Shown: positions 9,859 to 33,790 of the stretch, in pieces
Layout of the letters: every line of letters begins with the position of its first letter
Numbering within the stretch: position 1 is the first letter of the stretch
Assembly: GCF_964204645.1 (NCBI RefSeq)
Contig: NC_134036.1
Coordinates: 8,682,230 to 8,746,229 of the forward strand
Reading direction: 5' to 3'
Length of the DNA stretch: 64,000 nucleotides
Origin: Tubulanus polymorphus
Taxonomy: Eukaryota > Animalia > Nemertea
Translations under genes and position numbers: made by a program
Notes under the pieces: model-generated
The model's database searches: none
Seen by the model: the letters and a program-made list of their open reading frames with translations, nothing else
Told to the model about the DNA's origin: nothing

Positions 9859-9944
9859 AAACACAGTAATCCAAAATATACCAGACCGAGTAAATTTCCA
9901 AAACGACCTTAACACACTGTTCGACCAAAAAACTTAATGTTCCG

Positions 9945-14411: not shown

Positions 14412-15230
14412 AATGATGCAATCGTGAGTTGAAATAATACCTGAACAAATCGATGCACAGACATTTACTTTATATATCTACTTGAACAATCGAGCCTACT
14501 CAGTAATATACTCAGTTTTTACGAAACCTGGAGTTTTTGTTTCAGAGAAATTTGAGTATCAGTATCCGATGCTATATACTAACGTTAACGTTAGTTATCA
14601 TCGCTCCGTCATGCTAAGTTATACATTTCATGTCAACCAGTATCTACAGGCAGCTGTACAGTTTGTACACACTATATCTGAATACGAGGCTGGAATAGCA
14701 GGCTCACTTCACGTAGGTTCATGATGAGGAGAAACTCGCAGCTGATACCCGGAACGACGATGTAGTAACACTCGTCGATTCGTCGATGTTTACGGCTCGA
14801 CAGTGCTTTTAAAATCTAAAGTAGTAAATTTCCAGTGTATCGGTAATATGATTTGATGAGGAAAATGGGCTATTGTTAAATTCACTGTTTGAAGACCGCG
14901 ACTGAATTTGAAGTCTGCGGCAATAAATTAGTTCATTTATACTTGAATTGATAATCGAAGTGACAGTCGGCCTGCGGGTTGATTTCGGGATGACGACTCG
15001 AAAAACATGTCGCCCCATTGAATGGGGCTAAATTTTCGATGTTTACGGCCCGACAGCGCTTTTGTAACGATGATTCGTGAAAAAACACGCGGGCTATTTG
15101 TAGATCTCAGTGAGCTGAACGATATTATATGGATTGTATATGAAACAGCGGTAAGGTAACAAAGCCTATGTTCTTTTGGTGAAAATAGTGTGGAAGAAAT
15201 TAATAATAATAATAATCACGCGGATATCAA

Positions 15231-15533: not shown

Positions 15534-15610
15534 TTAGGCAGACTGTCACTAATTATTGAGAACTGAGTGAGAAGAGTAATTACAAATAAATTGATGATTG
15601 ACATGGCAAT

Positions 15611-16209
15611 AGTAATAGGGGTAATAGGCTTTCATACCAAAGGTCGAACGGTCGAGCCCATTAAAAAACAAAACATTAAAAGTAATTAAAAAACTATAAT
15701 ATATTTTCATAACCGCGTGCATTTTATATCAAAACTAAATATTTATTCTAAGATATCAATAATTTTAAATGCATATTGTATTAAATCAATTGGTCGCTCC
15801 ACTTCGCTACCACTCCGCTCCGCGACCAATTGATTTAATTACAATACACAAATTCAAATAATCAAATATATTCAAATGATAATAATTATTATATTATTCA
15901 ACTGAAATGCACGCGGTTATGAAAATATATTATAGTTTTTAATTACTTTTAATATATGTTATTAATGAACTCGATCATTAAACCTTTGATATGAAAGCCT
16001 ATTACCCCTATTACTCTTAAAATATTCACATAAATGAATAACATTTAAATCATTGAACTTTTAAAATCAATTTTAATAAAAAATATAGTATTAAAATGGA
16101 AGCAAATAAATACTACTGCCCAACATGTAATATCGATATAGATAAATCCCAAAAAGCAAGACACAATAAAACTAGAACACATTTAGAGAATAAATTGAAA
16201 CTAGAGTAT
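15611..16209 (+). repeat. Left TIR (contains a 405-bp internal palindrome, the PolB promoter and the first 38 PolB codons)
   Basis: Reverse complement of 33192-33790 (coordinate sum 49401), with about six substitutions seen by eye. Confidence 0.95.
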
Positions 16210-19200
16210 GAAGATGATATATTAGAAACTAAATTAGATGAATTAAAGAATGAAAAAGAAGCATACAAATGTGATACATGTAATCAATCATTCAGTGATA
16301 AAAGATATTATAAAGAACATTTAAAATCTATAAGTCATATTAGAAATAAGAATAATGATATTTTAGGTGAAGATTATTTTGATAATGATAATGATAAGAA
16401 ACAGAAGACAATTAAAAGAATAAAAAATAAATTAAACAATAAAAGACCATATATGGAAGATGTAAGAAATTATATTAATTCATTAGATAATAAAAAAGAT
16501 ATAGAGATAACCGAAGCATTTAAAAGTGATATTGGTCCAGCAGCTATTGAGTTTAAATTTCATAAAGGAAAAACAATAGAAGAAAATAAAAAACATTTAG
16601 AAAATATGAAAGAAATAATAAAAATAATTACAGATGTTGAATATCCAAAAATTAGTATATCAGTTAAAGTTAAATTTATAAAATCTGAAGATAAACCAAT
16701 ATATAATATGAATTCTCATTCACAACATATTATATCTAAACAACATATAGATGATAAATTAAATAAATGTTATAATGAAATAAAAAGTAAAATAGAAGAG
16801 AAATATTTTGAAGGATCTGGTTTAATATTAGATGAGATAATATTTATAACTTTACATGTTTATAACACAAAATATAATAAGTTAACTAAATCAAAACCAA
16901 TTGATGAAAATAATTTATCATATTATAAAGAACCAGATATTGAAGCATCGAGTTATATTAAACTACCATTTAAAACTAATGCTGTAATAAATATACAAAA
17001 TGAAGATGATAAATGTTTTCTATGGGCTATAATAAGTTGTTTACATCCAACAGAAGATATTACACATAGTTTTAGATTAACTCATTATAAACCATTTGAA
17101 AGTAATTATAAGATAGATAAGTATCCTGTTAGAATTAAAAATATCCCAAAAATAGAAAGAGATAATAATTTAAAGATAAATGTATTTGATTTAATCAAAT
17201 TACCAAATACAAAAGGTAACAACATAAAACATTATACATTAGAACCTTTATACCTATCAAAAGATTATGATTCAAATGATGTTATAGATATACTATATTA
17301 TGAGAATCATTATATGTGGATTAAACAAATAGATTTATTTTTTAGAACAGAAAGTGATCACCATAATAAAATATATCTATGTCGAAAATGTTTACATAAA
17401 TTTAGTAATGAAAGTACATTATTAAATCATAAACAACTATGTGATAATCATGATTATTGTAAATTAGTTTTACCAAATGAAAAAGATAAAATATTAGAAT
17501 TGAAAAAATATGATTACAAAAATAAAGTACCATTTGTAATATATGGAGATTTTGAATCATTAAATAAAGAATTAACAGATAAAGATAGAAAAGATATATA
17601 TTATAAAAGAAAGAAATTAAATTCTAATGAAAATGATTTTTCAGACCCGCCAAAAACAAATACTATTAAAAAAATTCATCAAAGTGCTGCAGCTTTCGGG
17701 TTATATATTAAATCTAATTATCCAGAACTAATTGAAAGTGAATATTATAATTACAGAAATGAAAATGTTATCAATCATTTTTGTGACTTATTAATTGAAT
17801 ATGAAATAAGATTTAGTAAATTATTAAATACAAATATAGAAATTATAATGACAGAAGAAGATAAAGAAGAATTTGAGTTTGCAGATAAATGTTATTATTG
17901 TGAAAAGATATTTAATTTTAGAGATAAAAAAGTAAGAGACCATGATCATTTGAATGGAAAGTTTAGAGGCGCTGCACATGAGAATTGTAATTTGGAAGCA
18001 AAGAAAATTAACTTTGTACCAGTTATATTTCACAATTTATCGGGGTATGACGCGCATTTATTTATCAAACAGTTATGTCATAAAATAGAAAAAATCAATA
18101 ATGAAATAGAAATATTAAATTCAAATAGATCAAAAGATAAAATACCAACTTATAAATTTAGAATGTTAGCTAAAACATCTGAGAATTATATATCATTCCA
18201 ATTTGGTTGCCTAAGATTTATAGATTCATATAGATTTTTAAATAGTTCATTAGATAACTTATCAAAATCATTAGTTGATGATGAATTAAAGATATTAAAA
18301 GAATATTACCCAAATAATGATGATTTTCAATTAATGAGATATAAAGGAGCAATTCCATATTCTTTCTATAAAAATCATAATGATTTTAAAATAACTGAAT
18401 TATTGAAAGAACAATTTTATGATGAATTAAAAAATGAATATGTTAAAGATGAAGTCTATAATAGAACATTGAATATTTGGAATCATTTCAAAATAAATCA
18501 TGGGCAATTAGTAGATTTATATTTAAAATCAGATGTATTATTATTAACCGATATATTCGAAAGGTTTAGAGATGTAAACCTAAAATATTTTAATATTGAT
18601 CCATGTCATTGTTATTCTAGTCCAGGTTTAACATGGGATTGTGGATTAAAATTTACAGATATAAAAATGGATTTGTTAACAAATATAGATCAATTACTAT
18701 TATTTGAAAAATCTATAAGAGGAGGTGTTTCAGGTGTATTGGGTGATAGATATTTCAATGTAAATGATAATCCTGGATATAAATTATTATACATAGATGC
18801 AAATAATCTTTATAGTTGGGCAATGATGGAACCACAACCTTATGGGATGTTGAAATAACTGAAGTTTTACAAATTGATAAATTTGATTGGAAGAAAAGAA
18901 TCCTAGATATTGCAGATGATTCAGATATTGGTTACTTCTTCGTTGTAGATTTAGAATACCCCGAAAATATTAAATTCAAATCTAGAAATCTAGCATATTG
19001 TCCCGAACATAAAACTGTTAAACATGAAGAATTATCAAATTATCAAAAAAGAATTAAACCCGATAATCATATTCATACAGAAAAGTTAATGGTAACTCAA
19101 GAAGATAAATATAATTATGTAGTACATTATAGAATGTTGAAGTTTTATTTGAGACAAGGAATGATTCTAAAAAAAGTACATAGATATATTTCATTTAGCC

Positions 19201-20120
19201 AATCTAAGTGGTTAGAAAAATATATAGATTTTAATACTACACAGAGAACTAAATCTAAAACTGATTTTGAGAAGGATTTCTTCAAACTAATGAACAATGC
19301 GTTCTATGGTAAGACTTGTGAAAATATTAGAAATAGAAATGATATTGAGTTAGTTAGTAATGGTAAAAGGATAAGGCATTTACAATCATATCCTAAGTTT
19401 ATAGGTAACAGAATATTTGATGAAAATTTAGCTGCAGTTAAGATGAGAAGAACTTCAATGAAATTTAATAAACCGATTTATGTTGGAGCTGCAGTTTTAG
19501 AATTATCAAAGTTATTAATGTATAAATTTTACTATAACGTATTACAACCTCATTTTGGAGAAAAACACATAGAAATTCTATACTTTGATACTGACAGTTA
19601 CATATTAAAGATAAAAACTGATAACATTACAGATGATTTAAAAACATTAAAACACCATTTTGATTTTAGTAATTATCCAAAAAATCATGAATTGTTTAGC
19701 AATGATAATAAAAAAGTTCCAGGGAAGTTTAAGGATGAATTAGGTGGTGAAGAAATGATAGAGTTCATTGGTATTAGATCTAAAATGTATAGTTATAAAA
19801 CTAAAACTCGTGAATCAAAGAAATTGAAAGGAATTACTAAAAGTGTAGTAGAAAAGAATATCCATTTCAAAGATTACATCAATTGTATATTTAATGAAGA
19901 AGTTAGAAAACATAAGATGAAATGTTTAAGATCTGAAGATCATGAAATGTATATTGAAGAGATAGAGAAGATAAGTCTAAACCCATTTGATGATAAAAGA
20001 TATATTTTAGATGATGGAATCCACACAGTCGCCTATGGTTGCAATTTAGATGAATATATAAAATTCAAAAGAGAAGAAACAAAAGAAAATGAGATTATGA
20101 AAAGGATTCTAGCGTGTTAA
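16096..20120 (+). CDS. polB: Protein-primed family B DNA polymerase (pPolB), split by a 1-nt frameshift at ~18844
   Basis: Exo I YGDFES; Exo II FHNLSGYD; Pol motifs YIDANNLY, KLMNNAFYGK, YFDTDS; KxY (SKMY). N-terminal C2H2 fingers and an HNH/EndoVII-like insert RDHDHLNGKFRGAAHENCN. Adding one G to tatgggatg joins ORFs 16096-18858 and 18816-20120 as PYGDVEIT. Confidence 0.96.
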
Positions 20121-20148
20121 TCAATTTCAATAAAAATTTGTATAATAA

Positions 20149-20490
20149 ATGGAGAGTAAACAAGTACACAGTGAATTCTTAGATAGAATTAAAGATACTT
20201 CAAGCGTCAAATCAGTAGATTATAAATTTAAAAAACTAACTGAGTTAACAATTCACAAGAAATATTTAATTACTAACATTGAAACAATTACTAATAAATA
20301 TGGAGATAAATTTGTAATTCATTTAGAATATGAAGGATTAAAAGGAAATAAATATAAATTCAGAACTTATTTACCAGATAGATTTCATAGATTATCAAGT
20401 GAAGATTTAGAAGAATTATGTTCTGGAGATTTCTATTTCGTATACAAAGGTAAGAATGAAAAAGGGCACCATGAAATAGATTTCGAATAA
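20149..20490 (+). CDS. Hypothetical 113-aa protein, possible OB-fold ssDNA-binding protein
   Basis: Clean ORF with TAAATG start directly after PolB; beta-rich pattern (YLITNIETITNKYGDKFVIHLE...TYLPDRF). Fold is inferred only. Confidence 0.55.
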   Translation: MESKQVHSEFLDRIKDTSSVKSVDYKFKKLTELTIHKKYLITNIETITNKYGDKFVIHLEYEGLKGNKYKFRTYLPDRFHRLSSEDLEELCSGDFYFVYKGKNEKGHHEIDFE

Positions 20491-20507
20491 GAAAATATGT
20501 AAAATAA

Positions 20508-21263
20508 ATGGTAGAATTAAAAGAATACAGAATATTTGTAGATTCTAGAAGGCTTACAAATTATAAATCTCATAATTTACTAGTACAATTAGATAGAAAA
20601 TTTAAGAATTGTGTTGATCTAAAATTAGTAAATATAAGTTTATGTAATTCTTTTTATAATATATCGGATAAAACTTTTGAACATAGAGGGTTTATGATTT
20701 ATATGAGAAATAAAGATAAATGGTTTCATATATTTTTAAAACCAGGATTATATAATTTAGAATCATTAGCGCAGGAAATTAATAGAAGAGCTCGGTTGAA
20801 AATCGGGGGCACTTCTGTATTTGAAATTAAATTTAATAAAATTGATAGTACTAATAAAATTAGAATAAAGATATCTAATGAACAACATAAATTTATGGTA
20901 AACAAACCACTGGCTAAAATGTTAGGAATTAAACCGCTTACAGTTACTGGAAACGCAGAAGGCAGCTCAAATATAATACCTTTTACACACTTTTATATTT
21001 ATTGCAATTTAATCGAGCCTACAAAAACTTTCGAAGCAACTAAAGAAACAATTTGTAATTCTAGTATATTAAATATTTTACCATTAAAGAATGTTAAACA
21101 ATTTGGAACGCAAATAAATTATAATTTAGCTGAATGTGATTTCAAACCTTGTATTCCTCAATTTAATAATTTTAAATTAGAAATAAGAAATCACAATGGA
21201 TATCTAATTGATTTGAATAACTTTCCTGTAATTTATGAATTAGTTATAAGATGTAAAGAGTAA
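20508..21263 (+). CDS. Minor capsid protein (penton, single jelly-roll)
   Basis: IFVDS...LxxISLxNSFYNI...LKPGLYN...YIYCNLIE...LEIRNHNGYLIDLN pattern typical of Polinton/virophage pentons; 251 aa. Confidence 0.8.
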   Translation: MVELKEYRIFVDSRRLTNYKSHNLLVQLDRKFKNCVDLKLVNISLCNSFYNISDKTFEHRGFMIYMRNKDKWFHIFLKPGLYNLESLAQEINRRARLKIGGTSVFEIKFNKIDSTNKIRIKISNEQHKFMVNKPLAKMLGIKPLTVTGNAEGSSNIIPFTHFYIYCNLIEPTKTFEATKETICNSSILNILPLKNVKQFGTQINYNLAECDFKPCIPQFNNFKLEIRNHNGYLIDLNNFPVIYELVIRCKE

Positions 21264-21279
21264 TTTTTTCACTATATAA

Positions 21280-21642
21280 ATGAATATAACTGTTGGACCG
21301 AGTATATGTTTTGGGTTTGATTTTAAACGTGAGAAAGAAATGAAATTTAACATTAATGATGTAATAACACATATCAAAAATATTGCATTTTCTAATGAAA
21401 CAACATTTGAGTATGAAACAACAATTGATAAAGAAACTTTAAATGTAGAAAAGATTACTAATTTAATTAGAGAATCTTTAAGATTTTATGAATTAGATGA
21501 AGATTTTATCATCGATGATATTAAAAACATATTATCCAAAATATATGATAATCATAAAACTAGTAATAAAATAAATGTTGAATTAATCATAAATAAGTTA
21601 ACTAAATATTTTGAAGATAGTAATTTTTTGATAAATAAATGA
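21280..21642 (+). CDS. Hypothetical 120-aa protein
   Basis: TAAATG start; tightly packed in the gene block. Confidence 0.7.
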   Translation: MNITVGPSICFGFDFKREKEMKFNINDVITHIKNIAFSNETTFEYETTIDKETLNVEKITNLIRESLRFYELDEDFIIDDIKNILSKIYDNHKTSNKINVELIINKLTKYFEDSNFLINK

Positions 21643-21860
21643 GTGATAATAAGTGGATAATAACTGGATTATATAATGGCGCATTACTATCAGTTGGAAC
21701 TGTTGGTTATTCAATGGTATTAAAAAAAGTATTCAAAATGGGAAGTGTTAATGTTGATAGATTTGATATAAATGATATTTTGAAATTAACATTAGCGGTT
21801 ACTTTATCTAATTTAACTATTGATTATTTGGAAAAACAAAAATATATTCCTCCCATATAA
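21639..21860 (+). CDS. Small hydrophobic 73-aa protein
   Basis: TAAATG start overlapping the upstream stop; two moderately hydrophobic segments. Confidence 0.7.
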   Translation: MSDNKWIITGLYNGALLSVGTVGYSMVLKKVFKMGSVNVDRFDINDILKLTLAVTLSNLTIDYLEKQKYIPPI

Positions 21861-21885
21861 ATACATAATTTTTTTTGCTAAATAA

Positions 21886-22308
21886 ATGGCTTCTGCAATT
21901 ATAACTATTATAGGATCGGCAATTGTTAACGCTTTAGCATTTACTGGTGGTGGTTATTTATTTAAACATATTGATAAAAATAGTTCATTAGGAGAACAAA
22001 GAAGACATAACTTAGCGTTAGAGAAATACAATAAAGCTGCAGAAGAATATAGAGAAAAGAGACAAAACTATATGGATTACATCAATAAAGAATTATATGA
22101 TCAGAAGATTTCACATAGAGATTTTCAATCAGTTGATGATGCAATGAGTTTATATAACGCGGTAACAAATAAAGAAAAATTACATCTATACAAACCTAAA
22201 TTATCAGATTATTATACCCCAAGTAAAGAACAACAGAAATATGAAATAATTTGGATTTTAGGTGGAACAGTTATTGTTATATTTGTTGCTTATAAGTTTA
22301 CTAATTAG
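21886..22308 (+). CDS. 140-aa protein with N-terminal hydrophobic helix, coiled coil and C-terminal transmembrane (TM) helix
   Basis: MASAIITIIGSAIVNALAFTGGGYLF...EQRRHNLALEKY...IIWILGGTVIVIFVAY. Confidence 0.75.
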   Translation: MASAIITIIGSAIVNALAFTGGGYLFKHIDKNSSLGEQRRHNLALEKYNKAAEEYREKRQNYMDYINKELYDQKISHRDFQSVDDAMSLYNAVTNKEKLHLYKPKLSDYYTPSKEQQKYEIIWILGGTVIVIFVAYKFTN

Positions 22309-22327
22309 TAATTTTTATTCTAAATAA

Positions 22328-22762
22328 ATGGAAGATAAAGTTGATAGTATTGATATTATTCCTCATGATATAAATAAAACTAAATTAAAAACATATTTAG
22401 AAAAACAAATATTAGAATTTGAAAGTGACTTAAAGATAAAAAAGAAAAAATATTTAAAAAGTAAAATTATATATTATTTGATTATAAGTGGTTCGGTTAC
22501 AATTAGTTCTGTAATAACATTTTTAGCAATATTCAGTCCATTAACACCTTTAGCTATATCAATTGGTGTATTAGGATTAAGTTCAAGTGTTTTAACTGGT
22601 ATAAGTTCAAAATTAAATATAAAAAGTAATAAAGAAAAAATTAAAACTAATATAAAAGAAATTAATAAATTGAAGAATACACTAGATTATATAATAAGTT
22701 TAAATGGTCATATAACAGTTGAAGAACAAGATAAATTATTAAAAGAATTAATTAATTATTAA
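22328..22762 (+). CDS. 144-aa protein with two TM helices flanked by coiled coils
   Basis: IIYYLIISGSVTISSVITFLAIF and LAISIGVLGLSSSVLTGI. Confidence 0.75.
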   Translation: MEDKVDSIDIIPHDINKTKLKTYLEKQILEFESDLKIKKKKYLKSKIIYYLIISGSVTISSVITFLAIFSPLTPLAISIGVLGLSSSVLTGISSKLNIKSNKEKIKTNIKEINKLKNTLDYIISLNGHITVEEQDKLLKELINY

Positions 22763-22778
22763 TTTTTTAATTATATAA

Positions 22779-24080
22779 ATGGGGTTTCCAAAAGCTTTCC
22801 AATATAATAAATCAATTAAATATAATATTCCGGCAATAGATTTTAAGAAAAATATTACATATAAAAATGTAGTTTTAAATTCATTAACTAATTTAGAAAT
22901 TTATGTTAATGAATCACAGTTTTTTATTTCTAAAATGGAAAATATATTTAATACATATGAAGTTACTTTTACTCGAGATGAATATCATATATATAAAGTA
23001 AAATCTAATATGAAATATTGGCAGAATCAATTAAATTTTGCTGTTTATTGTGCAACAACAGGATGTGGAATTAGTTGGAATGATCATTTAAATAACTTAG
23101 ATAAAAATTTGAAGTATTCTGATTTAAAATTAATTCACACAATATTTAGATTTCACACATATTTTCAAATCAGAATAATATTAAATGAATTAGAATGTCC
23201 TTTACCCGGGTCTAAATATTTTAAAGAATTGGATAATAATATTAATATATCCAAGTTTTATAAAATATGTAATTAATTTAATATAAATATTAATTCCGAT
23301 TTCAGAGCGCATGGTAAATTGCAAGGTGTTGGTGAACAGTATGAAATAAAAAGAATTGATTATATGCATAGAATTGGAGCTTATCATAATTATAAAATTG
23401 ATAATAATAATGGTTGGGTTAATTTCATTTTAGAAAATGGTGAAGGTTTTACAAAATCAGGTATACAAAGAATAAATCAATCTATTAGAATTTATTTGAT
23501 ATGTATTTTAGGCGCTCAAGTTGAAACAAGATCCCCAATAATTGGAAATGATAACACTTCATTCGATGCGCAGAAACAGTTTAAAGTTTTATTTGAAGAT
23601 TCCATACATGATGATAAAAATAGATCGATTCCAGAAAACATTATAAGATATCAAAATTATTTAGATAAATCTCATGTAAGACTTAATTATTGTATAGGCC
23701 CTAATCTATTAATTATTTCTAATGATTTAGTATTGAAGATGGGAAATATAATTGGTTATAATAATCTAATTAAAACTGCAACAATAAATAATTCATTTGG
23801 ATTAAATGATATAAATAAAAAGATTATCACTGCTCCAAAATTAATGGAAGGTGAAAAAAATAAAAAACACATTCAATCAACAGAAACTAAAACTAAGAAT
23901 ATTAAATTAAATAATGATTCTAAAATAAAAGATTACAATACATCAGAAGATATAAAAACTGATAAAATTCAACATGATATAATTAAACTAAATGATGATA
24001 ATAAATCCCATGAAAATACTAAATTAGCTATAACTTCTATAGGAATTGTAATCGGAGGAATATTATATTTTAAATTTTAA
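22779..24080 (+). pseudogene. ~430-aa protein with C-terminal TM, interrupted by one in-frame stop (23274-23276)
   Basis: ORFs 22779-23276 and 23319-24080 share a frame; reads ICN*FNININSDFRAHGKLQG, consistent with GAA>TAA. Confidence 0.8.
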
Positions 24081-24096
24081 TTTTTTTATTATGTAA

Positions 24097-25547: not shown

Positions 25548-25592
25548 ACCATGATATCAAAAAATATCAAGTAAACCATGATATCAAAAAAA
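25518..25592. repeat. ~28-bp tandem triplication spanning the stop codon
   Basis: gtaaac(c)atgatatcaaaaaatatcaa repeated ~3 times. Confidence 0.85.
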
Positions 25593-25619
25593 TAAATAAT
25601 TAATTTTTTTGTTAAATAA

Positions 25620-26867
25620 ATGAGTGGGAGTTATATAAGTCCTTCGAAGAATCATAGAATATCTAATGCTATTAAAGCAGAAAGATCACATCATATAATT
25701 ACTCATAACCCTTCAAATATTAATCCCGATGAAACTTTATACGTTAGAATCCCTCGATTAACACAAAATACTTTTTATGTTCCAAACAGTATTTATTTAT
25801 CAGCTGATATAAAAGTAATCGGTAATAATAATAATTATGTCGTTGATAATGTTGGAAGATATTTGATTAAAAAGTTAACAATAAAGATTGGTCCGGAAAC
25901 AGTTTTCTCATTAGATGATTATAATTTATTTATGCATTATAAAGATTTATGGTTAACTAAAGAATATAGAAATAATATGATATTTCAAGGAATTCAATTA
26001 GAAAACCAAAATAAATTAAGATCAGAAGCTAATAGCGCAATATTAAGTAATGATGTAGATAAATTGATAAAAAGTATATCTGGAAGCAAATATAAAATTC
26101 CATTAGATTTTGAATTGATAAATAATAATGCACCTTTATATAAATACGCAATTCAAGAAGATATTATATTTGAGATAACATTTGCTCCTGTAAATGAAAT
26201 TGTATTATCTAGCGTTGTTAAAGATATGAGTTATAAATTATCGAATATATGTTTAGAATATGATACAGTAACTGATGAAAATATTTCAAGTATAATTCAA
26301 ACTAAATATAATCAAGGGTTTTCATTATTATATGATTATATTGATAAATTTAAAACTGTAACTATTAATGCAAATGATGAAATTATTAATGAGAATATTA
26401 ACTTTCCTAGAAGATCTATTAAAAGTATATTAATATTTTTTACTATTGGAACGTATACTAATGGCGCAATAAATGTTGATAATTATTATAATCCTGAAAT
26501 AACAAAAGTAGAAATAACTATCGAAGGAATAGCAAATAAAATATTTTGTCAAGGAATGAGAATGATAGATCAATGGGTAGAAATTAGAAAACATTTTATG
26601 AATGAAAAAGTAAAATCATCTGAAAATTGTAACATTAATCAAATTGATTATTATACCGGTAATAAATATGCATTATGGTTAGATTTTAGAACAACAGAGG
26701 ATAATTCATTACATGGTTCTGGGAAAAAACTACAAAATACAAAAGATGGAATACAATTATTCATGAAAAAGAATAAAGGAATCAAAAATTTTAAAATGCA
26801 CATTTATATTATATCTGACGCGCAATTAAATATTGTAAATTCACAATTAGATAGTGTTATGTATTAA
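25620..26867 (+). CDS. Major capsid protein (double jelly-roll)
   Basis: Intact 415-aa beta-rich ORF (HNPSNINPDETLYVRIP...YLSADIK...NVGRYLIKKLTIKIG...LSNICLEYD); size and context fit a Polinton-type MCP. Needs profile or structure confirmation. Confidence 0.75.
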   Translation: MSGSYISPSKNHRISNAIKAERSHHIITHNPSNINPDETLYVRIPRLTQNTFYVPNSIYLSADIKVIGNNNNYVVDNVGRYLIKKLTIKIGPETVFSLDDYNLFMHYKDLWLTKEYRNNMIFQGIQLENQNKLRSEANSAILSNDVDKLIKSISGSKYKIPLDFELINNNAPLYKYAIQEDIIFEITFAPVNEIVLSSVVKDMSYKLSNICLEYDTVTDENISSIIQTKYNQGFSLLYDYIDKFKTVTINANDEIINENINFPRRSIKSILIFFTIGTYTNGAINVDNYYNPEITKVEITIEGIANKIFCQGMRMIDQWVEIRKHFMNEKVKSSENCNINQIDYYTGNKYALWLDFRTTEDNSLHGSGKKLQNTKDGIQLFMKKNKGIKNFKMHIYIISDAQLNIVNSQLDSVMY

Positions 26868-26899
26868 AATTTTAACTTTAATAAAAATATATATATTAA

Positions 26900-27957
26900 A
26901 TGGAAGGTGGATATATGAAATACAATCTCCAAGTGAAATGATATCAGATATATATTATATATTACCTTATGATGAATACAGTAAGTATTTTGGAGATTAC
27001 TTTAATCAATTCAAATTCAGAATAAGTAAAATAGATAAGAATATTGAAACAAAAATAGAAGATAATATTGAACCTAAAATAGAAGATAAGAATGATATTG
27101 AATATAAAATAGAAGATGATATTGAATCTAAAATAGAAGATAATGTTATACCTTCTACATCGAATGATGATAAGATTGAAACAAAAATAGAACATAATAT
27201 TGAACCTAAAATAGAAAAATCAAATGTTCAACCAAAAGATAACATCAGATGTATGTATTGTGAAGAAGATTTTGATAATTATAATGATTATTTATTACAC
27301 ATCAAAAAAGATGAACATATTTTACAATTAGTAAAAACATATGCCAATATATATAAAGATAAATGCAAAGAGGATCAGAATTATTGTGCCTTCTGTAATG
27401 AATGTATAACAAAGGCTAATTGGGCAAAACATTATAAATTAAAAACAAAAGGTGGAAATGATTCAGCCCATGCAATACAAGTATTTAAATCTTGGTGTGA
27501 AAAATGTAAAGAATATGTAATATATGATAAACAATTGAATCATAAATACTCAATTAAACATATTGGTACAGATAATGTAATAGAAAATCCAACAGTTATA
27601 AATCCAAAATTTAATAATAAGAATATATTAGATTATCGGTGGTATAGAAAAACATTTATAGATTATTTCTTGAGTAATGATATAGTTACCATATTGAAAA
27701 AGTTAGATAACTTTAAACCAAATGTAACTTATGCAATGAACTTATTTGAACTTAAATATGATGATTTTAGAGAATTTTTAAATAAACATCCATCTAAAAC
27801 TGAAATCGAAAATTATATTCCAAAAATATTTTCAAGAGAAACATTCAGGAAATATAAACTCGGGAATCATTTAGGACCTATACCAATGAAAATGCAAAGG
27901 GATATATATTTAGAATACAATAAGCTTAAAGAAAAATATGAAAATGAAAAAGATTAA
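26900..27957 (+). CDS. Zinc-finger protein with KIEDNIEx repeats; probable true start TAAATG at 26900 with an early frameshift, or in-frame ATG at 26938
   Basis: CMYC-x12-H-x5-H, CAFC...HY...H and CEKC...HKYSIKH fingers; ~7 KIE(D/H)NIE-like repeats. Confidence 0.7.
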
Positions 27958-27965
27958 ATTCCATA

Positions 27966-28302
27966 TATATTGATGGATGAATGGATGAGTTGGATGAATT
28001 GGAAGAGTGGAAGAGTGGATGAGTATAATAATATATATATTTTACTTTTTAACACATAAATTGGAAGAATAGTATGAGTATAAATATAATATTTATATTC
28101 TTTATTAAATTTAACATAATATATATATATTATTAAAATAATATTTAAATATAGTATAAAATTGATTAAATAACTTCAAATCAAACTCTTACTGTTTTAA
28201 AAATAAAAAACATATGTAAATTATATATTATTACACTCATCCATTCATCCACTCTTCCAATTCATCCAACTCATCCAACTCATCCATTCATCCATCAATA
28301 TA
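27966..28302. terminator. Long imperfect inverted repeat at the convergence point of the two gene blocks (putative bidirectional 3'-end signal)
   Basis: tatattgatggatgaatggatgagttggatga... at 27966 versus ...tcatccaactcatccattcatccatcaatata ending 28302; arms ~70 bp built of GGA(T/A)GA(G/A)T units. Confidence 0.5.
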
Positions 28303-28311
28303 CAGTGAATT

Positions 28312-28893
28312 CTATAATATTTTGAATTTTGAACCTTTATTATTTTTTAATTTATTCATATATTCATTGTGTAATTCAGTAGGTATAATTTGATTTTCTT
28401 CTAATGATTGTTGCATAGATTTTCTATCTTTGTTGTAGAATAAAACTAGAAATCTTATATTCTCTCTAAAGTCTTTCACAATTGAATTATATTTCTGATT
28501 TAAAACCCAAGTTGTTATCCCAAAATGTCTCCCAGAGAAAGCTAAATAACATAACTCACTTTCTCTAATTTTAGAATCATGTAAATTTGCGCAATCATCG
28601 ATAATAAATAATGTATTAGATCCTTTATAAATATCTAATGCAATTTTTATACAATTATCTAAATTATCTTTCACTGTTTTAGAATTTAATATAATAAACT
28701 TTTTATCTTTAAAAACTATATCTCTATTATACGTTTCATTCATTTCATAAGTTGGGCAGAATAATATTATATTATCGAAATGATTTTTATAAATAGTTTC
28801 TAATAAATATAATATGAAGTGTGTTTTACCACAATTTGTAACTCCAGTAACTAACATATTATGTGGTTCAAATATAAACAAATCTTTATTCAT
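28312..28893 (-). CDS. A32/FtsK-like genome packaging ATPase
   Basis: Walker A GVTNCGKT, Walker B LFIIDD, SGRH arginine motif, VLNQ. Confidence 0.92.
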   Translation of the reverse strand: MNKDLFIFEPHNMLVTGVTNCGKTHFILYLLETIYKNHFDNIILFCPTYEMNETYNRDIVFKDKKFIILNSKTVKDNLDNCIKIALDIYKGSNTLFIIDDCANLHDSKIRESELCYLAFSGRHFGITTWVLNQKYNSIVKDFRENIRFLVLFYNKDRKSMQQSLEENQIIPTELHNEYMNKLKNNKGSKFKIL

Positions 28894-29998
28894 TTATTCT
28901 TTTAATTTTACTAGATAAAATCCATTCATTAAATTTATCATCATATCCTTTATATTTCACCAAAGAATACTTTTTTCCTTTAAGAGTTTTTGTTTTCAAT
29001 ACTTTTTCTATTTTGTATTCTATTTCATCTGGATTTGGTACTAATGATAATTCTTGTTCATAGAAATAACCTAATATTTCTTCATCTTTTAAATCTTCTA
29101 ATTTATAAACAAATGGTTTAGTTAATAATATCTTTTTAATCTTGAATATTTCTTCAGTAAAATTGGGGGTATAACCTTTATAAAATGTTTTTCGATATTT
29201 AGAAATTCTAACATGTTGTCCTATTTTAAATTTAGGTTCTCCAAAATTATGTGTAACAAATGCTCCATATAAATTATTCCAAACTATTTCTGAATTTTCT
29301 TCTTTTCTAGCTTGTATAGGTTTCATATTTATAGAACTATGTTTATAATTATTATAACCTTTAACTAAATCATCTAACACATCGATATATTTATATGTTT
29401 CATTAGCGGTGAAATATTTCCACATTCTAGTTTTCAATGTTTTATTAAATCTTTCTATAACAGATGCTTTTTTATCTGAATGTGTTGAAAAATATTCTAC
29501 ATCGTTATCAGTTAATAGTTTTTTAAAATGTTTGTTATAAAATTCTTTACCTTCATCAAATTGTATCTTATCTGGGATAGCTTCTTTAAATATAGATTTA
29601 AAAGCATTTGAAACTTCTATTCCAGTTTTATTTTTGATTGGAATTGACCATGCGTATCGACTGAATATATCTATAACATTCAGTATCCAGAAATATCCTT
29701 TGTTGTATTCTTCTAAGTTCTTCATATCAATTAAATCTGCTTGCCATTGTTGGTCAATATATGAAACCATAACTTTTCTTGTTAAATAAGTTTTATCCAT
29801 TTTCTTGTGGATTTGATATGTTGGTTGATTTTGTAACCATGATTTTAATTCACTATATTTTATATCACCGTGTGGGTGCCGTACGGCACCATTGCTATTA
29901 TCGGATTTAATTTTATTCCATAATTCTGAAACGTTAGAATATGATACTTTACTTTCTGGGTTGTAATATAACGCTCTTAAATATTGTTCTTTTTTCAT
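28886..29998 (-). CDS. int: Retroviral-like (rve) DDE integrase with C-terminal chromodomain
   Basis: WQADLID, IDIFSRYAW, QFDEGKEF, KASVIERFNKTLK; chromodomain YKIEKVL...YSLVKYKGYDDKFNEWI; consistent with the 6-bp TSD. Confidence 0.96.
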   Translation of the reverse strand: MKKEQYLRALYYNPESKVSYSNVSELWNKIKSDNSNGAVRHPHGDIKYSELKSWLQNQPTYQIHKKMDKTYLTRKVMVSYIDQQWQADLIDMKNLEEYNKGYFWILNVIDIFSRYAWSIPIKNKTGIEVSNAFKSIFKEAIPDKIQFDEGKEFYNKHFKKLLTDNDVEYFSTHSDKKASVIERFNKTLKTRMWKYFTANETYKYIDVLDDLVKGYNNYKHSSINMKPIQARKEENSEIVWNNLYGAFVTHNFGEPKFKIGQHVRISKYRKTFYKGYTPNFTEEIFKIKKILLTKPFVYKLEDLKDEEILGYFYEQELSLVPNPDEIEYKIEKVLKTKTLKGKKYSLVKYKGYDDKFNEWILSSKIKRINE

Positions 29999-30004
29999 CT
30001 TATT

Positions 30005-30391
30005 TTAATCCATTAATAATAATCTTGGTTTATTTTCAATGACTTTATCATTTGACTTATTTTCTGGTATGATAAGTTTATTGTCATCGGAATCATATTT
30101 ACCATCAGATTTAAATTTTGATTTATATATTACACCGGATAATATAATAACTGTTACTAATCCAATTGTAATATATAATTTATAATTACTTCCAGCATTA
30201 GAAGAATTAGATGGATTATTATTTGAATCAATACCACCGTGTGGGTGCCGTACGGCATCATCAGGTGATTCATTTATATCAGTTAATTTCTTTTTCTTAG
30301 CTTTTTTTAATTCTGATGATCTTTTACCTAATTCTCTTGCCCATTTAATTTGTTTCTCGGATCTAGCCTTTTTCTTAACTCCATCACTCAT
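30005..30391 (-). CDS. 128-aa protein with basic N-terminus and one TM helix
   Basis: KKKARSEKQIKWARELGKRSSELKKAKKKK; LYITIGLVTVIILSGVIY; TAAATG start. Confidence 0.75.
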   Translation of the reverse strand: MSDGVKKKARSEKQIKWARELGKRSSELKKAKKKKLTDINESPDDAVRHPHGGIDSNNNPSNSSNAGSNYKLYITIGLVTVIILSGVIYKSKFKSDGKYDSDDNKLIIPENKSNDKVIENKPRLLLMD

Positions 30392-30992
30392 TTATTTTAG
30401 TTAATTTTTGTTCTGATTCATTTTCTGTTTCGACGTTTTGTTGTAGTACAGCGTCATCTGTTTCGTTCTTACCTGATTTATATTCCATAGGTTTGATGTT
30501 CGAAAATGTTATGACGCCAGTAGAAATTAATGTCATAACCGATCCTAATTGAAATGAAGCATAACCGACCCATTTTTGTAATTCAGTCATAACTAAGTAG
30601 TCATTTTTCAAATCATTATATAATTTATTTTCATCATCAATTGGTATTAACTGGTTACATAATTTTGAATAACATTTGACAATACCATCTGAAATAGAAT
30701 CATTTATTTTAGATAATCTTGCCTCTTCATAAATCTTAAAATATTTTATTACTTTTTCTTTATTCATATTATCTAATTCTTGAAAAGTTATTGTTTTACC
30801 AATAAACTCTTTAGTTTTTCCACTCGCAATCAATAGTTCTAGATGATGCTTACAATATAAATAGTATTCATAATCTATATTGTTATTAACTTGAATAGAA
30901 TTAGAAACAACTGTATCTTTATTATCACTAATACCCAAATCATCTAATGTCTTTTCAATATCAATACTATTCTTATTAGATTTCTTTGACAT
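30384..30992 (-). CDS. Hypothetical 202-aa protein with a C-terminal hydrophobic segment
   Basis: Intact ORF, TAAATG start, overlaps the next gene by 8 nt. Confidence 0.75.
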   Translation of the reverse strand: MSKKSNKNSIDIEKTLDDLGISDNKDTVVSNSIQVNNNIDYEYYLYCKHHLELLIASGKTKEFIGKTITFQELDNMNKEKVIKYFKIYEEARLSKINDSISDGIVKCYSKLCNQLIPIDDENKLYNDLKNDYLVMTELQKWVGYASFQLGSVMTLISTGVITFSNIKPMEYKSGKNETDDAVLQQNVETENESEQKLTKINE

Positions 30993-31216
30993 TTATTTTA
31001 GAGAAATTTAATAAGAATAGTATTATAAGTATTCTTCAAATGATACTAGATAGTTAAAGCTAAAGAACTCTAGTATTAGTTATTGTTTTTTTAGTATTTT
31101 TTATTTGTGATATAAAGTATTCTTTTTTGAAAAGAAAATATTAAAAATATAATAGAAATAATAGATAGTTGAAGGTATGTAATTTTTATTATATTTTATT
31201 TAAAATCTATTATTCT

Positions 31217-31987
31217 TTAACCACTCATTAAAGACTCAACGTATTGTCCATTATGTGTTGAATTCCATAATTCAATATTTTTTTTTGCTTTATCCAGTTG
31301 ATTCAAATATAACTGTAAATCTATTTTATTAAATTTTATTTTATTTTCTTTCTTTTCAAGAGGTCTTAGATTCTTCCAATTCCATATTAACTTCTGATTG
31401 TATTCATCATTCATGTCAAATTTAGATATTGGTAACACATGATCAATATGAAAATAATTGCCATAATTATTTATATTCATTTTATCATCGAATTGAAATA
31501 TTATCCATGATTTGAAGAATTCATCCGAACAATCTAGTAAATTAGATAATGTGTATGAGTGACTGTCTTTACTGAATAATTGTGTTAATCTAGACCTTAA
31601 GCATTGTTTCAATCTAAAATTAAGATCTGTTTGATATTTTTCATTTTGATAATTGTTAATATTCTCTCTATTATTTTCCCTCCATTCTCTCATATATTCT
31701 GGGTGATTTTCTCTCCATTCTCTCATATAAACTTTCCACTTTTCTGGATTATTTTCTCTCCATTGTTTATCTTTTTCTTTATATTTTTCTGGATTATTTG
31801 CTCGATATTGTCTATTATATAGTTTATTACAAGTTTTGCAATAACAACTTTTACCATCTTTAGTTTTTTTATGTTTATTAAATTCTGTAAATGGCTTATT
31901 TATTTTACACTTATAACATGTCTTCTGATATATATTTATTACACTATTATTGTTTATATTTATAGCTTGTGATTGTTCTGGTTCCAT
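31217..31987 (-). CDS. HNH-type endonuclease with N-terminal Zn ribbon and REWRENxPE repeats (giant-virus homing-nuclease-like)
   Basis: CYKC-x19-CYCKTC; FHIDHVLPISKFD...WKNLRPLEKKEN; FRLKQCLRSRL helix. Confidence 0.8.
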   Translation of the reverse strand: MEPEQSQAININNNSVINIYQKTCYKCKINKPFTEFNKHKKTKDGKSCYCKTCNKLYNRQYRANNPEKYKEKDKQWRENNPEKWKVYMREWRENHPEYMREWRENNRENINNYQNEKYQTDLNFRLKQCLRSRLTQLFSKDSHSYTLSNLLDCSDEFFKSWIIFQFDDKMNINNYGNYFHIDHVLPISKFDMNDEYNQKLIWNWKNLRPLEKKENKIKFNKIDLQLYLNQLDKAKKNIELWNSTHNGQYVESLMSG

Positions 31988-33044
31988 TTATTATACATAT
32001 TTTTATTAAAATTGGTTAATATTTTATAATCCTCTTCCATTTCTTCGACTAACGTCATCCTTTTTCATTCCTCGCTGCTTTTGATAAGTCAGTTTCAATT
32101 CCTTGATATCTAAATAATACCACTGGGTAAAACGCTCGGGTGAGAGCGAGTTGGCTTCTGCGCATGCGCTAATTATAATTATATATTCATTCTATAAATT
32201 CTGTAAAATAGAAACGACCAACATAAAATATCAAAACGTGTTCGCACTAGGCAAAACCGCTCTTATAGTAGCGTTTTTGCTTAATGCGCATGCGCTAATT
32301 ATAATTATATATTTATTATTGAAACGACTGAACATAAAAATTCACAAATCAGATTTACACAATACATTATACAAGTTGTTCAGTCATTTCGTCCAATACA
32401 TCATTTGATTTCTATAAATACAATTTATAATTACAAACATTTTTTCAATTGCTGGTAAATATTTAACTACATCAATAAATGTTAAACTTAATCATTGGAG
32501 TCTTAATGTTTTTGAAATTATTATATTTCTTCTTCGATCTTTTGGTGATTCTATTGGTTCGATATCCATTGCTGTTGATTCCTCAGTCAGAAAGAGTATC
32601 TTGAGTTTCTCTATCGCTTCTTGATGCGTATGACTTTTTATTAATCTAAAAGATATTAGCGGTAACTCTAGCTATCTAAAAGATATACTAAATACACTTA
32701 AATATATCTAAAGGTTTCATATTTAATAGCCTTAATAACTACAACAAACAGTACTTACATTTAGATTTATAATTGTATACTATAAACTCCTAATTTCGTT
32801 TCGAAAGATAGAATATCCTGAGCACAATATTACAGCGTATGTCCATTTCCGGGGTGATTTCTAGAATGAACACATCGTTGATTATGCCACGTCATCTAGT
32901 TCCGGCGCGCCTTTCTAGAATATTCTACACGTTTCTGATTATGACGTGTCATCTCTATTCAGAGTTCCAGCACAGTTTGTAATATTATGAGTCATAATGT
33001 CTCGTCGTTATAGTAACAACTGTAACAGCTGTGAATTTATAGAT

Positions 33045-33305
33045 TTATTCTATAGCTCTGTACATTGAATGTATATAGGCTAAAATAGAATTATTTTCTA
33101 GTATAAACATCGTATCATCAACGTATTGTTCATTATTTGGATCAGTGTTCCATAATTCAATAAATTTCTTTCCTTTTGTTAACTGTTCTGAATATTCTAG
33201 TTTCAATTTATTCTCTAAATGTGTTCTAGTTTTATTGTGTCTTGCTTTTTGGGATTTATCTATATCGATATTACATGTTGGGCAGTAGTATTTATTTGCT
33301 TCCAT
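33045..33305 (-). CDS. Chimeric 86-aa ORF: PolB N-terminal Zn finger (from the TIR) fused to an HNH-paralog C-terminus
   Basis: First 38 aa identical to PolB; QLTKGKKFIELWNTDPNNEQYV resembles QLDKAKKNIELWNSTHNGQYV of 31217-31987. Confidence 0.7.
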   Translation of the reverse strand: MEANKYYCPTCNIDIDKSQKARHNKTRTHLENKLKLEYSEQLTKGKKFIELWNTDPNNEQYVDDTMFILENNSILAYIHSMYRAIE

Positions 33306-33790
33306 TTTAATACTATACTTTTTATTAAAATTGATTTTAGAAGTTCAATGATTTAAATGTTATTCATTTATGTGAATATTTTAAGAGTAATAGGGGTAAT
33401 AGGCTTTCATATCAAAGGTTTAATGATCGAGTTCATTAATAACATATATTAAAAGTAATTAAAAACTATAATATATTTTCATAACCGCGTGCATTTCAGT
33501 TGAATAATATAATAATTATTATCATTTGAATATATTTGATTATTTGAATTTGTGTATTGTAATTAAATCAATTGGTCGCGGAGCGGAGCGGTAGCGAAGT
33601 GGAGCGACCAATTGATTTAATACAATATGCATTTAAAATTATTGATATCTTAGAATAAATATTTAGTTTTGATATAAAATGCACGCGGTTATGAAAATAT
33701 ATTATAGTTTTTTAATTACTTTTAATGTTTTGTTTTTTAATGGGCTCGACCGTTCGACCTTTGGTATGAAAGCCTATTACCCCATTTACT
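33192..33790 (-). repeat. Right TIR
   Basis: Reverse complement of 15611-16209; followed by TSD GGCAAT. Confidence 0.95.

What the first reader, a model, noticed from the sequence alone, without database searches (positions are those of the whole stretch)
16090..33311. Endogenous Polinton whose genes almost all start at the poxvirus initiator TAAATG: candidate virophage of a pox-like virus in an animal
Seen: ATG is embedded in exactly TAAATG at 20149, 20508, 21280, 21639, 21886, 22328, 22779, 24097, 25620, 26900 (+) and 28893, 30391, 30992, 31987 (-), i.e. 14 of 17 starts. The others are TAAAATG (PolB and its TIR mirror) and TAAGATG (integrase). The motif is kept even inside upstream coding sequence, where two genes end in I-N-E-stop (ATA AAT GAR TAA). 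T at -3 is a poor animal Kozak context. The element encodes no RNA polymerase or capping enzyme. Established: TAAAT(G) is the poxvirus intermediate/late initiator, yielding 5' poly(A) leaders by slippage, and virophages such as mavirus copy their helper's late promoter. Inference: this element is transcribed by a cytoplasmic pox/NCLDV-like helper, possibly acting as an inherited antiviral.
Basis: partly seen in the sequence, partly recalled or inferred. Interest (0 to 1): 0.9.

Follow-up and report, generated by a model that had tools for sequence, protein, structure and literature searches.

The report
Polinton clade with poxvirus-style late promoters
A virus-like mobile element integrated in a likely animal genome, and its whole branch of relatives, starts almost every gene at the same two-part DNA signal that poxviruses and some iridovirus relatives carry at many gene starts, so it is likely a parasite that borrows the transcription machinery of a still-unidentified large DNA virus.

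Summary
The element spans 15611-33790 (604-bp TIRs, GGCAAT target duplication); this copy is decayed, from a high-copy family. All 14 listed TAAATG starts are real, and all 14 also have T at -12. In 12 metagenomic relatives plus the window, 63 of 78 ORFs start at TAAATG, even at 40-44% GC; seven sister loci with the same genes show 0 of 49 and use TATA(G) instead. The signal is bipartite (AT-only -18..-13, T-12, TAAATG): 50 of 63 starts versus 9 of 117 other TAAATG sites. Stop-start coupling, poly(A) signals and AT bias are excluded. No RNA polymerase was found, and internal AATAAA is not avoided. Best reading: post-replicative promoters for a helper virus's polymerase, as mavirus copies CroV. 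The helper is not pinned down: TAAATG also marks invertebrate iridoviruses (42 of 100) and marine iridovirus-related bins; tight packing, +4G and missing 3' hairpins favour pox, but a promoter matrix cannot separate pox from those bins. No helper, RNA or antiviral effect is shown. I found no report of this promoter in Polintons.

The parts
15605..15610 (.). left target-site duplication GGCAAT
15611..16214 (+). left TIR, 604 bp, ends AGT; its first ~405 nt form an imperfect hairpin; holds the PolB promoter and first codons
16078..16098 (+). PolB promoter-like signal: TAAAAA block, T at -12, TAAAATG
16096..20120 (+). protein-primed-type DNA polymerase B gene with N-terminal zinc fingers and an endonuclease VII-like domain; split between two frames near 18,850 in this copy
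   Evidence: Pfam PF02945; polymerase motifs in two frames; protein-primed type inferred from context
20149..20490 (+). 113-aa conserved unknown gene, TAAATG start, A-rich class
20508..21263 (+). 251-aa gene, likely minor capsid protein (label partly recalled, not folded), TAAATG start, A-rich class
   Evidence: weak DUF5901; orthologues in L003, L009, L015, L019, L021
21280..21642 (+). 120-aa unknown gene, TAAATG start, T-run class; its last codons hold the next promoter
21639..21860 (+). 73-aa hydrophobic core gene, TAAATG start inside the upstream CDS
21886..22308 (+). 140-aa membrane-type core gene, TAAATG start, T-run class
   Evidence: family of 12 ORFs in both clades
22328..22762 (+). 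144-aa two-helix membrane gene (weak SLATT-like), TAAATG start
22779..24080 (+). core gene of the 442-aa family, interrupted by a stop near 23,275 in this copy; TAAATG start
   Evidence: tblastn with the intact L003 orthologue, 68% identity
24097..25547 (+). coiled-coil/membrane core gene (485 aa in L003), broken in this copy; TAAATG start
25602..25622 (+). MCP promoter-like signal: T-run, T at -12, TAAATG
25620..26867 (+). double-jelly-roll major capsid protein, 415 aa, open frame
   Evidence: model pLDDT 82.6; fold matches PBCV-1, iridovirus and mavirus capsids
26900..27957 (+). zinc-finger accessory gene, TAAATG start at 26900 out of frame with the 339-aa ORF in this copy
27962..28302 (.). 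long inverted repeat between the two convergent gene blocks (candidate 3'-end or collision signal)
   Evidence: I25; fold z -16.4; unrelated hairpins at the same junction in L001 and L005
28312..28893 (-). A32-like packaging ATPase, 193 aa (204 in L001), TAAATG start inside the integrase CDS
   Evidence: PF04665 E 9e-12
28886..29998 (-). rve integrase with chromodomain, TAAGATG start (TAAATG in L001 and L003 orthologues)
30005..30391 (-). 128-aa gene, TAAATG start inside the upstream CDS
30384..30992 (-). 202-aa core gene, TAAATG start
   Evidence: family of 13 ORFs in both clades
31217..31987 (-). 256-aa accessory gene (HNH-like by weak family link), TAAATG start, A-rich class, no upstream gene on its strand
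33187..33790 (-). right TIR (8 mismatches to the left), with the mirror PolB start at 33305
33791..33796 (.). right target-site duplication GGCAAT

Best explanation
This is a decayed integrated copy of a capsid-encoding Polinton whose clade places a two-part signal (AT-only block, T at -12, TAAATG) on nearly every gene, and that signal is likely a post-replicative promoter read by the RNA polymerase of a co-infecting large DNA virus, most likely pox-like. Shown: the element, the signal, its restriction to one capsid clade, and the lack of a detectable polymerase. Inferred: the helper polymerase starts within the AAA, so the mRNA has almost no templated leader and, if the helper is pox-like, gains a slipped poly(A) leader that puts A, not T, at -3; transcripts read through tightly packed neighbours and the two convergent blocks meet at a hairpin; all genes, PolB and integrase included, switch on together in infected cells, as in mavirus; integration itself would need no helper. 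Helper identity, my odds: pox-like 0.40, iridovirus-related 0.27, other large DNA virus 0.05. A protective effect on the host is untested and this copy is broken.
For: Clade 63 of 78 starts versus sister loci 0 of 49; AT-matched sisters L012, L017, L023 0 of 10, GC-richer clade members L006-L008 9 of 11; TAAATG loci on one side of a capsid-tree branch, SH-aLRT 97. Bipartite signal 50 of 63 versus 9 of 117 other TAAATG sites, p 5e-23. TAA is the upstream gene's stop in 1 of 64 cases; the signal is kept inside upstream CDS in 8 overlaps. Back-to-back pairs with 19-30 nt between ATGs (6 of 7 pairs), like chordopox pairs (mostly 23-29 nt). +4G 43 of 63, as in pox 148 of 215, against 13 of 47 in the marine bins; sisters keep a purine at -3 (40 of 49). 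AATAAA inside CDS not avoided (window 65 observed, 62.7 expected; 18 within PolB), as in pox and iridovirus loci, while sisters show 15 versus 24. Gene-end hairpins 3 of 73, as in pox 0 of 104, unlike iridovirus 66 of 98. No RPB1/RPO147 match in the window or L001-L043. Other giant-virus polymerase loci have TAAATG at only 77 of 1020 starts. Vaccinia late consensus T-N9-TAAATG (PMC11423596); TAAA is read by the viral polymerase itself (PMC12917281); mavirus precedent (10.1101/068312); PLVs occur in entomopoxvirus occlusion bodies (PMC11296320). Unnamed RPO147 proteins fall in the pox clade, one on a very long branch (P0317, P0319, P0320), so uncatalogued pox-like viruses exist.
Against: No helper was linked to this host; no genome was available to search. 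The T peak is at -12 (0.95) here but -13 (0.70) in chordopox loci, and A at -4 (0.86) resembles the iridovirus side (1.00; bins 37 of 47) not pox (0.38). The A-rich class has TAAAAA 9 nt before TAAA, not 14 as in the vaccinia intermediate consensus. Matrix test pox versus marine bins: 37 of 63 favour the bins, mean log-ratio 0.09, undecided. The one entomopox-like locus shows T-12 in 1 of 5 TAAATG starts. T5NT depletion is largely general homopolymer avoidance (A7 0.35, T6 0.25). The family fills 0.67% of reads in DNA run X5 with mixed flanks: many germline insertions are easier to explain if it can also move without a helper. A cytoplasmic pox polymerase must somehow reach a nuclear provirus. 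Sister clades have equally compact gene-by-gene signals (median gap 22 nt), so compactness alone is not a helper mark. The pox sample is one syntenic region (18 orthologue families).
Confidence: 0.68

Rival explanations
1. Same satellite life-style, but the helper is an iridovirus-related virus (Pimascovirales), whose nuclear phase would let its factors reach the integrated copy.
For: A scan of viral contigs with the Polinton pattern returned iridovirus records and giant-virus bins, no poxvirus, among 60 hits. TAAATG starts: 42 of 100 in iridovirus loci; 19 of 54, 12 of 30, 10 of 45 in bins G001-G003; 7 of 15 in L255 with T-12 in 7 of 7. G001 and G002 capsids are closest to grouper iridovirus among solved structures. 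A at -4 matches. G001 has back-to-back pairs of the same form. Iridovirus-like particles are reported from marine invertebrates (PMC5923455). A clade protein resembles IIV22_098L (25%, E 5e-9).
Against: Insect-type iridoviruses fit badly: only 21 of 63 Polinton starts favour their matrix over pox, they have no T peak, their AATAAA lies at variable distance from ATG, and 66 of 98 gene ends carry hairpins against 3 of 73 here. The bins have +4G in 13 of 47 and hairpins at 31 of 136 ends. The shared gene also occurs in sister L019. The bins' hosts are unknown and three were found by a pattern taken from the Polinton (selected sites were dropped before scoring).
Confidence: 0.27
2. The signal is a compact, TATA-like nuclear promoter or start-context element read by host Pol II, possibly with a factor encoded by the element, and the likeness to viral late promoters is convergence in AT-rich genomes.
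For: High germline copy number. Sister clades also have one compact signal per gene (TATA within -20..-5 in 33 of 49, shuffles 8.9). Several element genes have no known function, including zinc-finger proteins and the 442-aa family whose model was uninformative. Adintovirus transcripts occur in fish tissue without a stated helper (PMC8502044 passage).
Against: A signal fixed on the start codon leaves no room for a TATA box 25-30 nt upstream in pairs only 19-30 nt apart. About 5 AATAAA per kb inside CDS, unavoided, would be expected to cut Pol II transcripts short. T at -3 is fixed while +4G is selected, which fits a start inside the AAA better than scanning on a normal leader.
Confidence: 0.22
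3. The pattern is a by-product: AT bias, stop-start coupling (TAA then ATG), or the upstream gene's AATAAA poly(A) signal overlapping the next ATG.
For: The element is 24% GC; AATAA is the top upstream 5-mer (48 of 78).
Against: Nulls give 6.7%; AT-matched sisters 0 of 10; GC-rich members keep it; TAA is an upstream stop in 1 of 64; divergent pairs and first genes with no upstream neighbour carry it; -5 is T in 43% so AATAAA is not the invariant; T-12 is unexplained.
Confidence: 0.02

Closest known systems
Mavirus and EMALEs of Cafeteria (10.1101/068312, passages; PMC10945749, passages)
   Same: Integrating element of 15-20 kb with PolB, rve integrase, capsid, TIRs and TSD; one promoter motif on all genes that resembles a large virus's late promoter; related types differ in promoter motif, implying different helpers.
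   Different: Protist host; CroV motif (TCTA) rather than TAAATG; dependence and protection shown by experiment there, only inferred here; this capsid is only a distant fold match to mavirus (rank 37) and no protease was found.
Entomopoxvirus-associated PLVs AHEV_PLV1/2, CBEV_PLV1, Ca_PLV1 (PMC11296320; parts 1-2 of 8 read, main text searched)
   Same: Polinton-like elements proposed as poxvirus hyperparasites in animals.
   Different: About 12 kb, encode a protease, PolB-bearing ones lack an rve integrase; link rests on co-sequencing from occlusion bodies. The words promoter, motif and transcription do not occur in the main text. No sequence comparison with my element was possible.
Poxvirus late and intermediate promoters (PMC11980589, PMC11423596, PMC12917281, PMC5294985; passages)
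   Same: TAAATG over the start codon, AT-rich upstream block with a conserved T about one helical turn away, back-to-back pairs, promoters inside upstream CDS.
   Different: T at -12 not -13; strong A at -4; the A-rich class is 5 nt closer than the vaccinia intermediate core; used on 81% of called starts, replication genes included.
Animal Mavericks/adintoviruses (PMC8097293, PMC8502044; passages)
   Same: PolB, integrase, ATPase, DJR capsid, two convergent gene blocks, AGT..ACT ends, 6-bp TSD; a virophage-like role against iridoviruses was speculated for vertebrate Mavericks.
   Different: No adenovirus-type protease detected; no promoter evidence was given in the passages seen; usually assumed to be transcribed in the nucleus (own knowledge).
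Invertebrate iridovirus gene signals (PMC5923455 passages; PMC5294985 section 9)
   Same: AATAAATG at many starts (my measurement, not stated in these reviews).
   Different: Hairpin at most 3' ends and long intergenic gaps (median 110 nt), absent here (median 20 nt).

Membership tests
Polinton/Maverick | terminal inverted repeats with AGT..ACT ends | tested here: met
   604-bp TIRs, 8 mismatches
Polinton/Maverick | 6-bp target-site duplication | tested here: met
   GGCAAT on both sides
Polinton/Maverick | family B DNA polymerase | tested here: met
   polymerase motifs in two frames, no PF03175 hit; broken in this copy
Polinton/Maverick | rve integrase | tested here: met
   PF00665 E 8e-9 plus chromodomain
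Polinton/Maverick | A32-like ATPase and double-jelly-roll capsid | tested here: met
Polinton/Maverick | single-jelly-roll minor capsid | tested here: inconclusive
   251-aa ORF: weak DUF5901 only, not folded
Vertebrate-type Maverick / adintovirus | adenovirus-like protease (adenain) | tested here: not met
   no protease family among 19 window ORFs or 15 further proteins; not filed as adintovirus
Named capsid lineages (Mavpol1/2, PgVV, Virophaviricetes) | capsid phylogeny with reference members | not tested
   no named reference capsids were at hand; Atlas hits are unnamed Preplasmiviricota/Nucleocytoviricota clusters
Virophage (functional sense) | helper's late promoter on essentially all genes | tested here: inconclusive
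   one signal on 63 of 78 starts, like pox and iridovirus-related signals, but no helper identified
Virophage (functional sense) | no own RNA polymerase | tested here: met
   no Pfam or tblastn hit; some ORFs remain unassigned
Virophage (functional sense) | silent without helper, replicates with it, inhibits it | not testable with these tools
   needs infection and RNA data
Poxvirus late promoter | TAAAT(G) over the start codon | tested here: met
Poxvirus late promoter | conserved T nine bases before TAAATG (position -13) | tested here: inconclusive
   T-13 48 of 63 but the invariant is T-12, 60 of 63; pox loci peak at -13
Poxvirus late promoter | start in the AAA with a non-templated poly(A) leader | not testable with these tools
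   no raw RNA reads
Vaccinia intermediate promoter | TAAAAA core 14 nt before TAAA | tested here: not met
   spacer is 9 nt in the A-rich class
Invertebrate iridovirus transcription signals | hairpin at the 3' end of most genes | tested here: not met
   3 of 73 versus 66 of 98; only convergent junctions carry hairpins

The most novel reading that the evidence does not exclude
Animal Polinton lineages are sorted by the promoter of the giant virus they parasitise: this clade is the inherited satellite of an undiscovered pox-like virus of invertebrates, its sister clade (T-rich block plus TATAG just before ATG) of an asfarvirus-like one, so Polinton promoters can be used to predict unknown animal viruses and a virophage-type defence in animals.
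Probability: 0.3. Interest if true: 0.92.

Novelty: new variant of a known kind. Interest (0 to 1): 0.74.

Why it matters
How the many Polintons in animal genomes are expressed, and whether any are virophages, is an open question: virions and triggers are mostly unknown, and the virophage idea for animals has rested on speculation or co-sequencing. A clade-wide promoter of large-DNA-virus type gives a sequence-level argument and a cheap direct test (a 30-nt reporter, 5'-end mapping). It also predicts a helper virus of invertebrates that can be searched for in reads, and the promoter switch between sister clades offers a way to match Polintons to helpers across genomes.

Tried and rejected
No host genome was held, so no search for helper genes or other copies in the assembly. 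RNA: no RNA holder listed; laying contigs of runs X6-X10 gave only short partial matches and cannot show starts; not used as evidence. Viral contigs hold no relative of the capsid. Pattern scan with the A-rich class gave 64 loci, none with a convincing run of TAAATG starts beyond L069, 3 of 4. T5NT avoidance as a pox mark: rejected, it tracks general homopolymer avoidance. Two promoter classes as vaccinia intermediate versus late: rejected on spacing, and the likely minor capsid gene has the A-rich class in two elements and the T-run class in two others. Gene sharing with a helper: only a two-helix gene shared with iridoviruses in both clades and a deoxynucleoside kinase in L003 with no close viral donor. 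Folding the 442-aa core protein to exclude a hidden polymerase failed (pLDDT 41, no match); the 113-aa family has no solved relative. Entomopox-like calibration gave one locus only. Yang et al. 2011 was not held. Earlier findings: none by sequence.
Full report
Anatomy. The element runs from 15611 to 33790 (18,180 bp, 24% GC, against about 33-40% around it). It has 604-bp TIRs with 8 mismatches, AGT..ACT ends and a GGCAAT duplication. It carries PolB (zinc fingers, endonuclease VII-like domain, polymerase motifs), an rve-chromodomain integrase, an A32-like ATPase and a 415-aa protein whose model (pLDDT 82.6) is a double jelly roll matching PBCV-1, iridovirus and mavirus capsids. Genes form two blocks that converge near 28,100. 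This copy is decayed: PolB is split near 18,850, the genes starting at 22779, 24097 and 26900 are interrupted, and the ATPase is shorter than in L001. No protease was found. The host is inferred to be an animal from a NACHT gene, a SET fragment and satellites in the flanks; this is not proven. In raw DNA run X5, 85,978 of 12.9 million reads (0.67%) lie on the family, mostly 90-99% alike, with mixed sequence beyond the right end, so it is a high-copy family with many insertion sites.

The observation. All 14 listed starts have TAAATG; PolB and its mirror have TAAAATG and the integrase TAAGATG. Blind ORF calling gives 13 of 21 against 19 of 279 out-of-frame ATGs and a 6.7% null.

Relatives. A capsid alignment retrieved 41 metagenome and 2 genome loci. 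I split them after seeing both capsid identity and starts. Twelve loci plus the window (near-copies L002, L014, L022 dropped) give 63 of 78 TAAATG starts. Seven sister loci with the same core genes (near-copies L016, L025 dropped) give 0 of 49. The other 19 loci, mostly short or frame-broken, give 2 of 71 and were not used further. Composition does not explain the split: sisters at 29-31% GC score 0 of 10, clade members at 36-44% GC score 9 of 11. On a quick capsid tree (45 rows, midpoint root, only 4 sister rows) the 15 clade rows lie on one side of a branch with SH-aLRT 97; L022 was labelled with its near-copies although its own two called starts lack the motif, and L017, L021, L023, L024 were not in the tree. 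Gene by gene, orthologues have TAAATG in the clade and not in the sisters.

The signal has two parts. Among the 63 starts, T at -12 occurs 60 times, A at -4 54 times and G at +4 43 times; an AT-only block at -18..-13 plus T-12 occurs in 50 of 63, against 9 of 117 TAAATG sites that are not starts. In the window 14 of 14 have T-12. The block is TAAAAA-like before PolB, the 113-, 251- and 256-aa genes and 26900, and a T run before the capsid gene and most core genes. TAA is the upstream gene's stop in 1 of 64 cases; the signal lies inside upstream coding sequence in 8 overlaps; six of seven divergent pairs have only 19-30 nt between their ATGs. This excludes stop-start coupling and poly(A) signals as the cause.

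Whose promoter? Papers give the vaccinia late consensus as T-N9-TAAATG and the intermediate as TAAAAA-N14-TAAA (PMC11423596, Table 1 passage), and show that the viral polymerase itself reads TAAA at -1 to +3 (PMC12917281, passages). I measured the same statistics on fetched loci. Chordopoxviruses (36 loci of one region): 364 of 776 starts, T peak at -13, no bias at -4, +4G 69%, back-to-back pairs mostly 23-29 nt, no gene-end hairpins. Invertebrate iridovirus loci (L117 encodes a protein identical to IIV22_098L): 42 of 100, A at -4 in all, no T peak, hairpins at 66 of 98 ends. Giant-virus bins G001-G003 (partial sequence only; G001 and G002 have capsids nearest iridovirus, G003 had no capsid match): 19 of 54, 12 of 30, 10 of 45; L255 7 of 15 with T-12 in all seven. 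So TAAATG is uncommon among large DNA viruses but not private to poxviruses. A position matrix disfavours insect iridoviruses (21 of 63) and cannot separate pox from the bins (37 of 63, mean 0.09 bits). The Polinton resembles pox in +4G, tight packing and missing hairpins (3 of 73), resembles the bins in A-4, and matches neither exactly in T-12. One entomopox-like locus (label inferred from its tree position) gave 5 of 15 TAAATG starts with no clear upstream pattern. Unnamed RPO147 proteins group with poxviruses, P0320 on a very long and therefore uncertain branch.

Nuclear or helper transcription? No RPB1/RPO147 homologue was found in the window or 43 loci and no capping family among the ORFs; several ORFs stay unassigned, and the 442-aa model was uninformative. 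AATAAA inside CDS is not avoided (65 versus 62.7 expected in the window, 141 versus 147.7 in the clade), as in pox and iridovirus loci, while sisters show 15 versus 24.2 (z -2.4). T5NT is depleted, but so are A and T runs generally, so I give it no weight. Long hairpins of unrelated sequence sit at the convergent junction in the window, L001 and L005, but not at two overlapping convergent pairs in L001 and L003.

Mechanism. Most likely the genes are post-replicative templates for a helper virus's polymerase, as mavirus genes carry the CroV late motif and stay silent until infection (10.1101/068312, passages) and as EMALE types differ in motif and helper response (PMC10945749, passages). Shown: element, signal, clade restriction, failure of trivial causes. 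Inferred: start in the AAA, poly(A) leader, read-through, helper dependence. Against: no helper or RNA evidence, the one-base offset, the high germline copy number, the difficulty of a cytoplasmic polymerase reaching a nuclear copy (easier for an iridovirus-related helper with a nuclear phase), and equally compact signals in sister clades. An antiviral role is untested.

Sister clade. TATA lies within -20..-5 in 33 of 49 starts (shuffles 8.9, maximum 18), TATAG 17 versus 2.6 expected, often after TTTTC. That is too close to ATG for a classical TATA box and recalls the TATTT plus TATATA late promoter of African swine fever virus (PMC5294985, PMC5974111, passages). It is a lead only; these loci also show some AATAAA avoidance and normal -3 purines, which fits host Pol II.

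Novelty. Poxvirus-associated PLVs are known (PMC11296320; parts 1-2 of 8 read, main text has no occurrence of promoter, motif or transcription; supplements not seen). A virophage role for vertebrate Mavericks was speculated (PMC8097293, passages). Ten full-text searches listed no paper reporting TAAATG or any large-virus promoter in animal Polintons; most hits were seen as listings only, and subscription journals are largely missing. Also seen: PMC11980589, PMC8502044, PMC5923455, PMC11464507, 10.1101/2025.10.09.676808 (passages); 10.64898/2026.10.13.758929 (passages and part 1 of section 10); PMC5294985 section 9. The poly(A)-leader mechanism is from own knowledge and reference titles. Verdict: a new variant of a known kind, real and directly testable, with the helper's identity open.

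Noticed in passing
window 15611-16015 and 33386-33790: The outer ~405 nt of each TIR is itself an imperfect palindrome with a second copy of the terminus at its inner end (DNA fold z -19.9). Reads of other copies diverge inside it but share its ends. Possibly a fold-back end or a mini-element at both termini.
   Followed up: partly
L012, L015, L017-L019, L023, L024: Sister Polintons carry TATA(G) 5-20 nt before ATG, often after TTTTC, and L019 has a divergent pair with one central TATATA; possibly an asfarvirus-type or host-type promoter.
   Followed up: partly
L117, L119, L170-L173: Invertebrate iridovirus genes very often have AATAAA at or a few bases before ATG (AATAAATG-type at 42 of 100 starts); the two reviews read do not state this as a late promoter.
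   Followed up: partly
P0317, P0318, P0319, P0320: Unnamed RPO147-like proteins from Logan contigs that group with poxviruses; P0320 is 24% identical to chordopox and 20-22% to the others, a possible deep pox-like lineage.
   Followed up: partly
L003:10340-10981: A deoxynucleoside kinase gene with a TAAATG start in a clade member, unusual cargo for a Polinton; no close viral donor found.
   Followed up: partly
L117:14822-15457, L009:2348-2956, L019:8392-9012: A two-helix membrane gene family shared by invertebrate iridoviruses (IIV22_098L, MIV071L) and Polintons of both clades, 25-29% identity.
   Followed up: partly
window 1-4427: A perfect 2,207-bp inverted duplication at the window start with a 13-nt spacer; likely an assembly fold-back.
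   Followed up: no
window 42346-44974 (-): NACHT-domain gene, split over two frames near 44,100-44,270, with an LRR-like tail (label by eye); a host immune-receptor-type gene 8.5 kb from the insertion.
   Followed up: partly
window 49243-49806 (-): SET-domain ORF fragment (PF00856 E 9e-15), origin not examined.
   Followed up: no
window 9832-14500 and 61960-64000: A 31-bp tandem array and a ~945-bp tandem unit.
   Followed up: no
window 31397-33100: The right accessory region is covered far more deeply than the core in runs X4 and X8, and some copies skip 32004-33328, suggesting non-autonomous derivatives or a separate repeat inserted there.
   Followed up: no
P0058-P0120: A large set of 427-aa capsid relatives at 37-39% identity on megabase contigs, i.e. 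another high-copy endogenous family whose gene starts could not be read.
   Followed up: no
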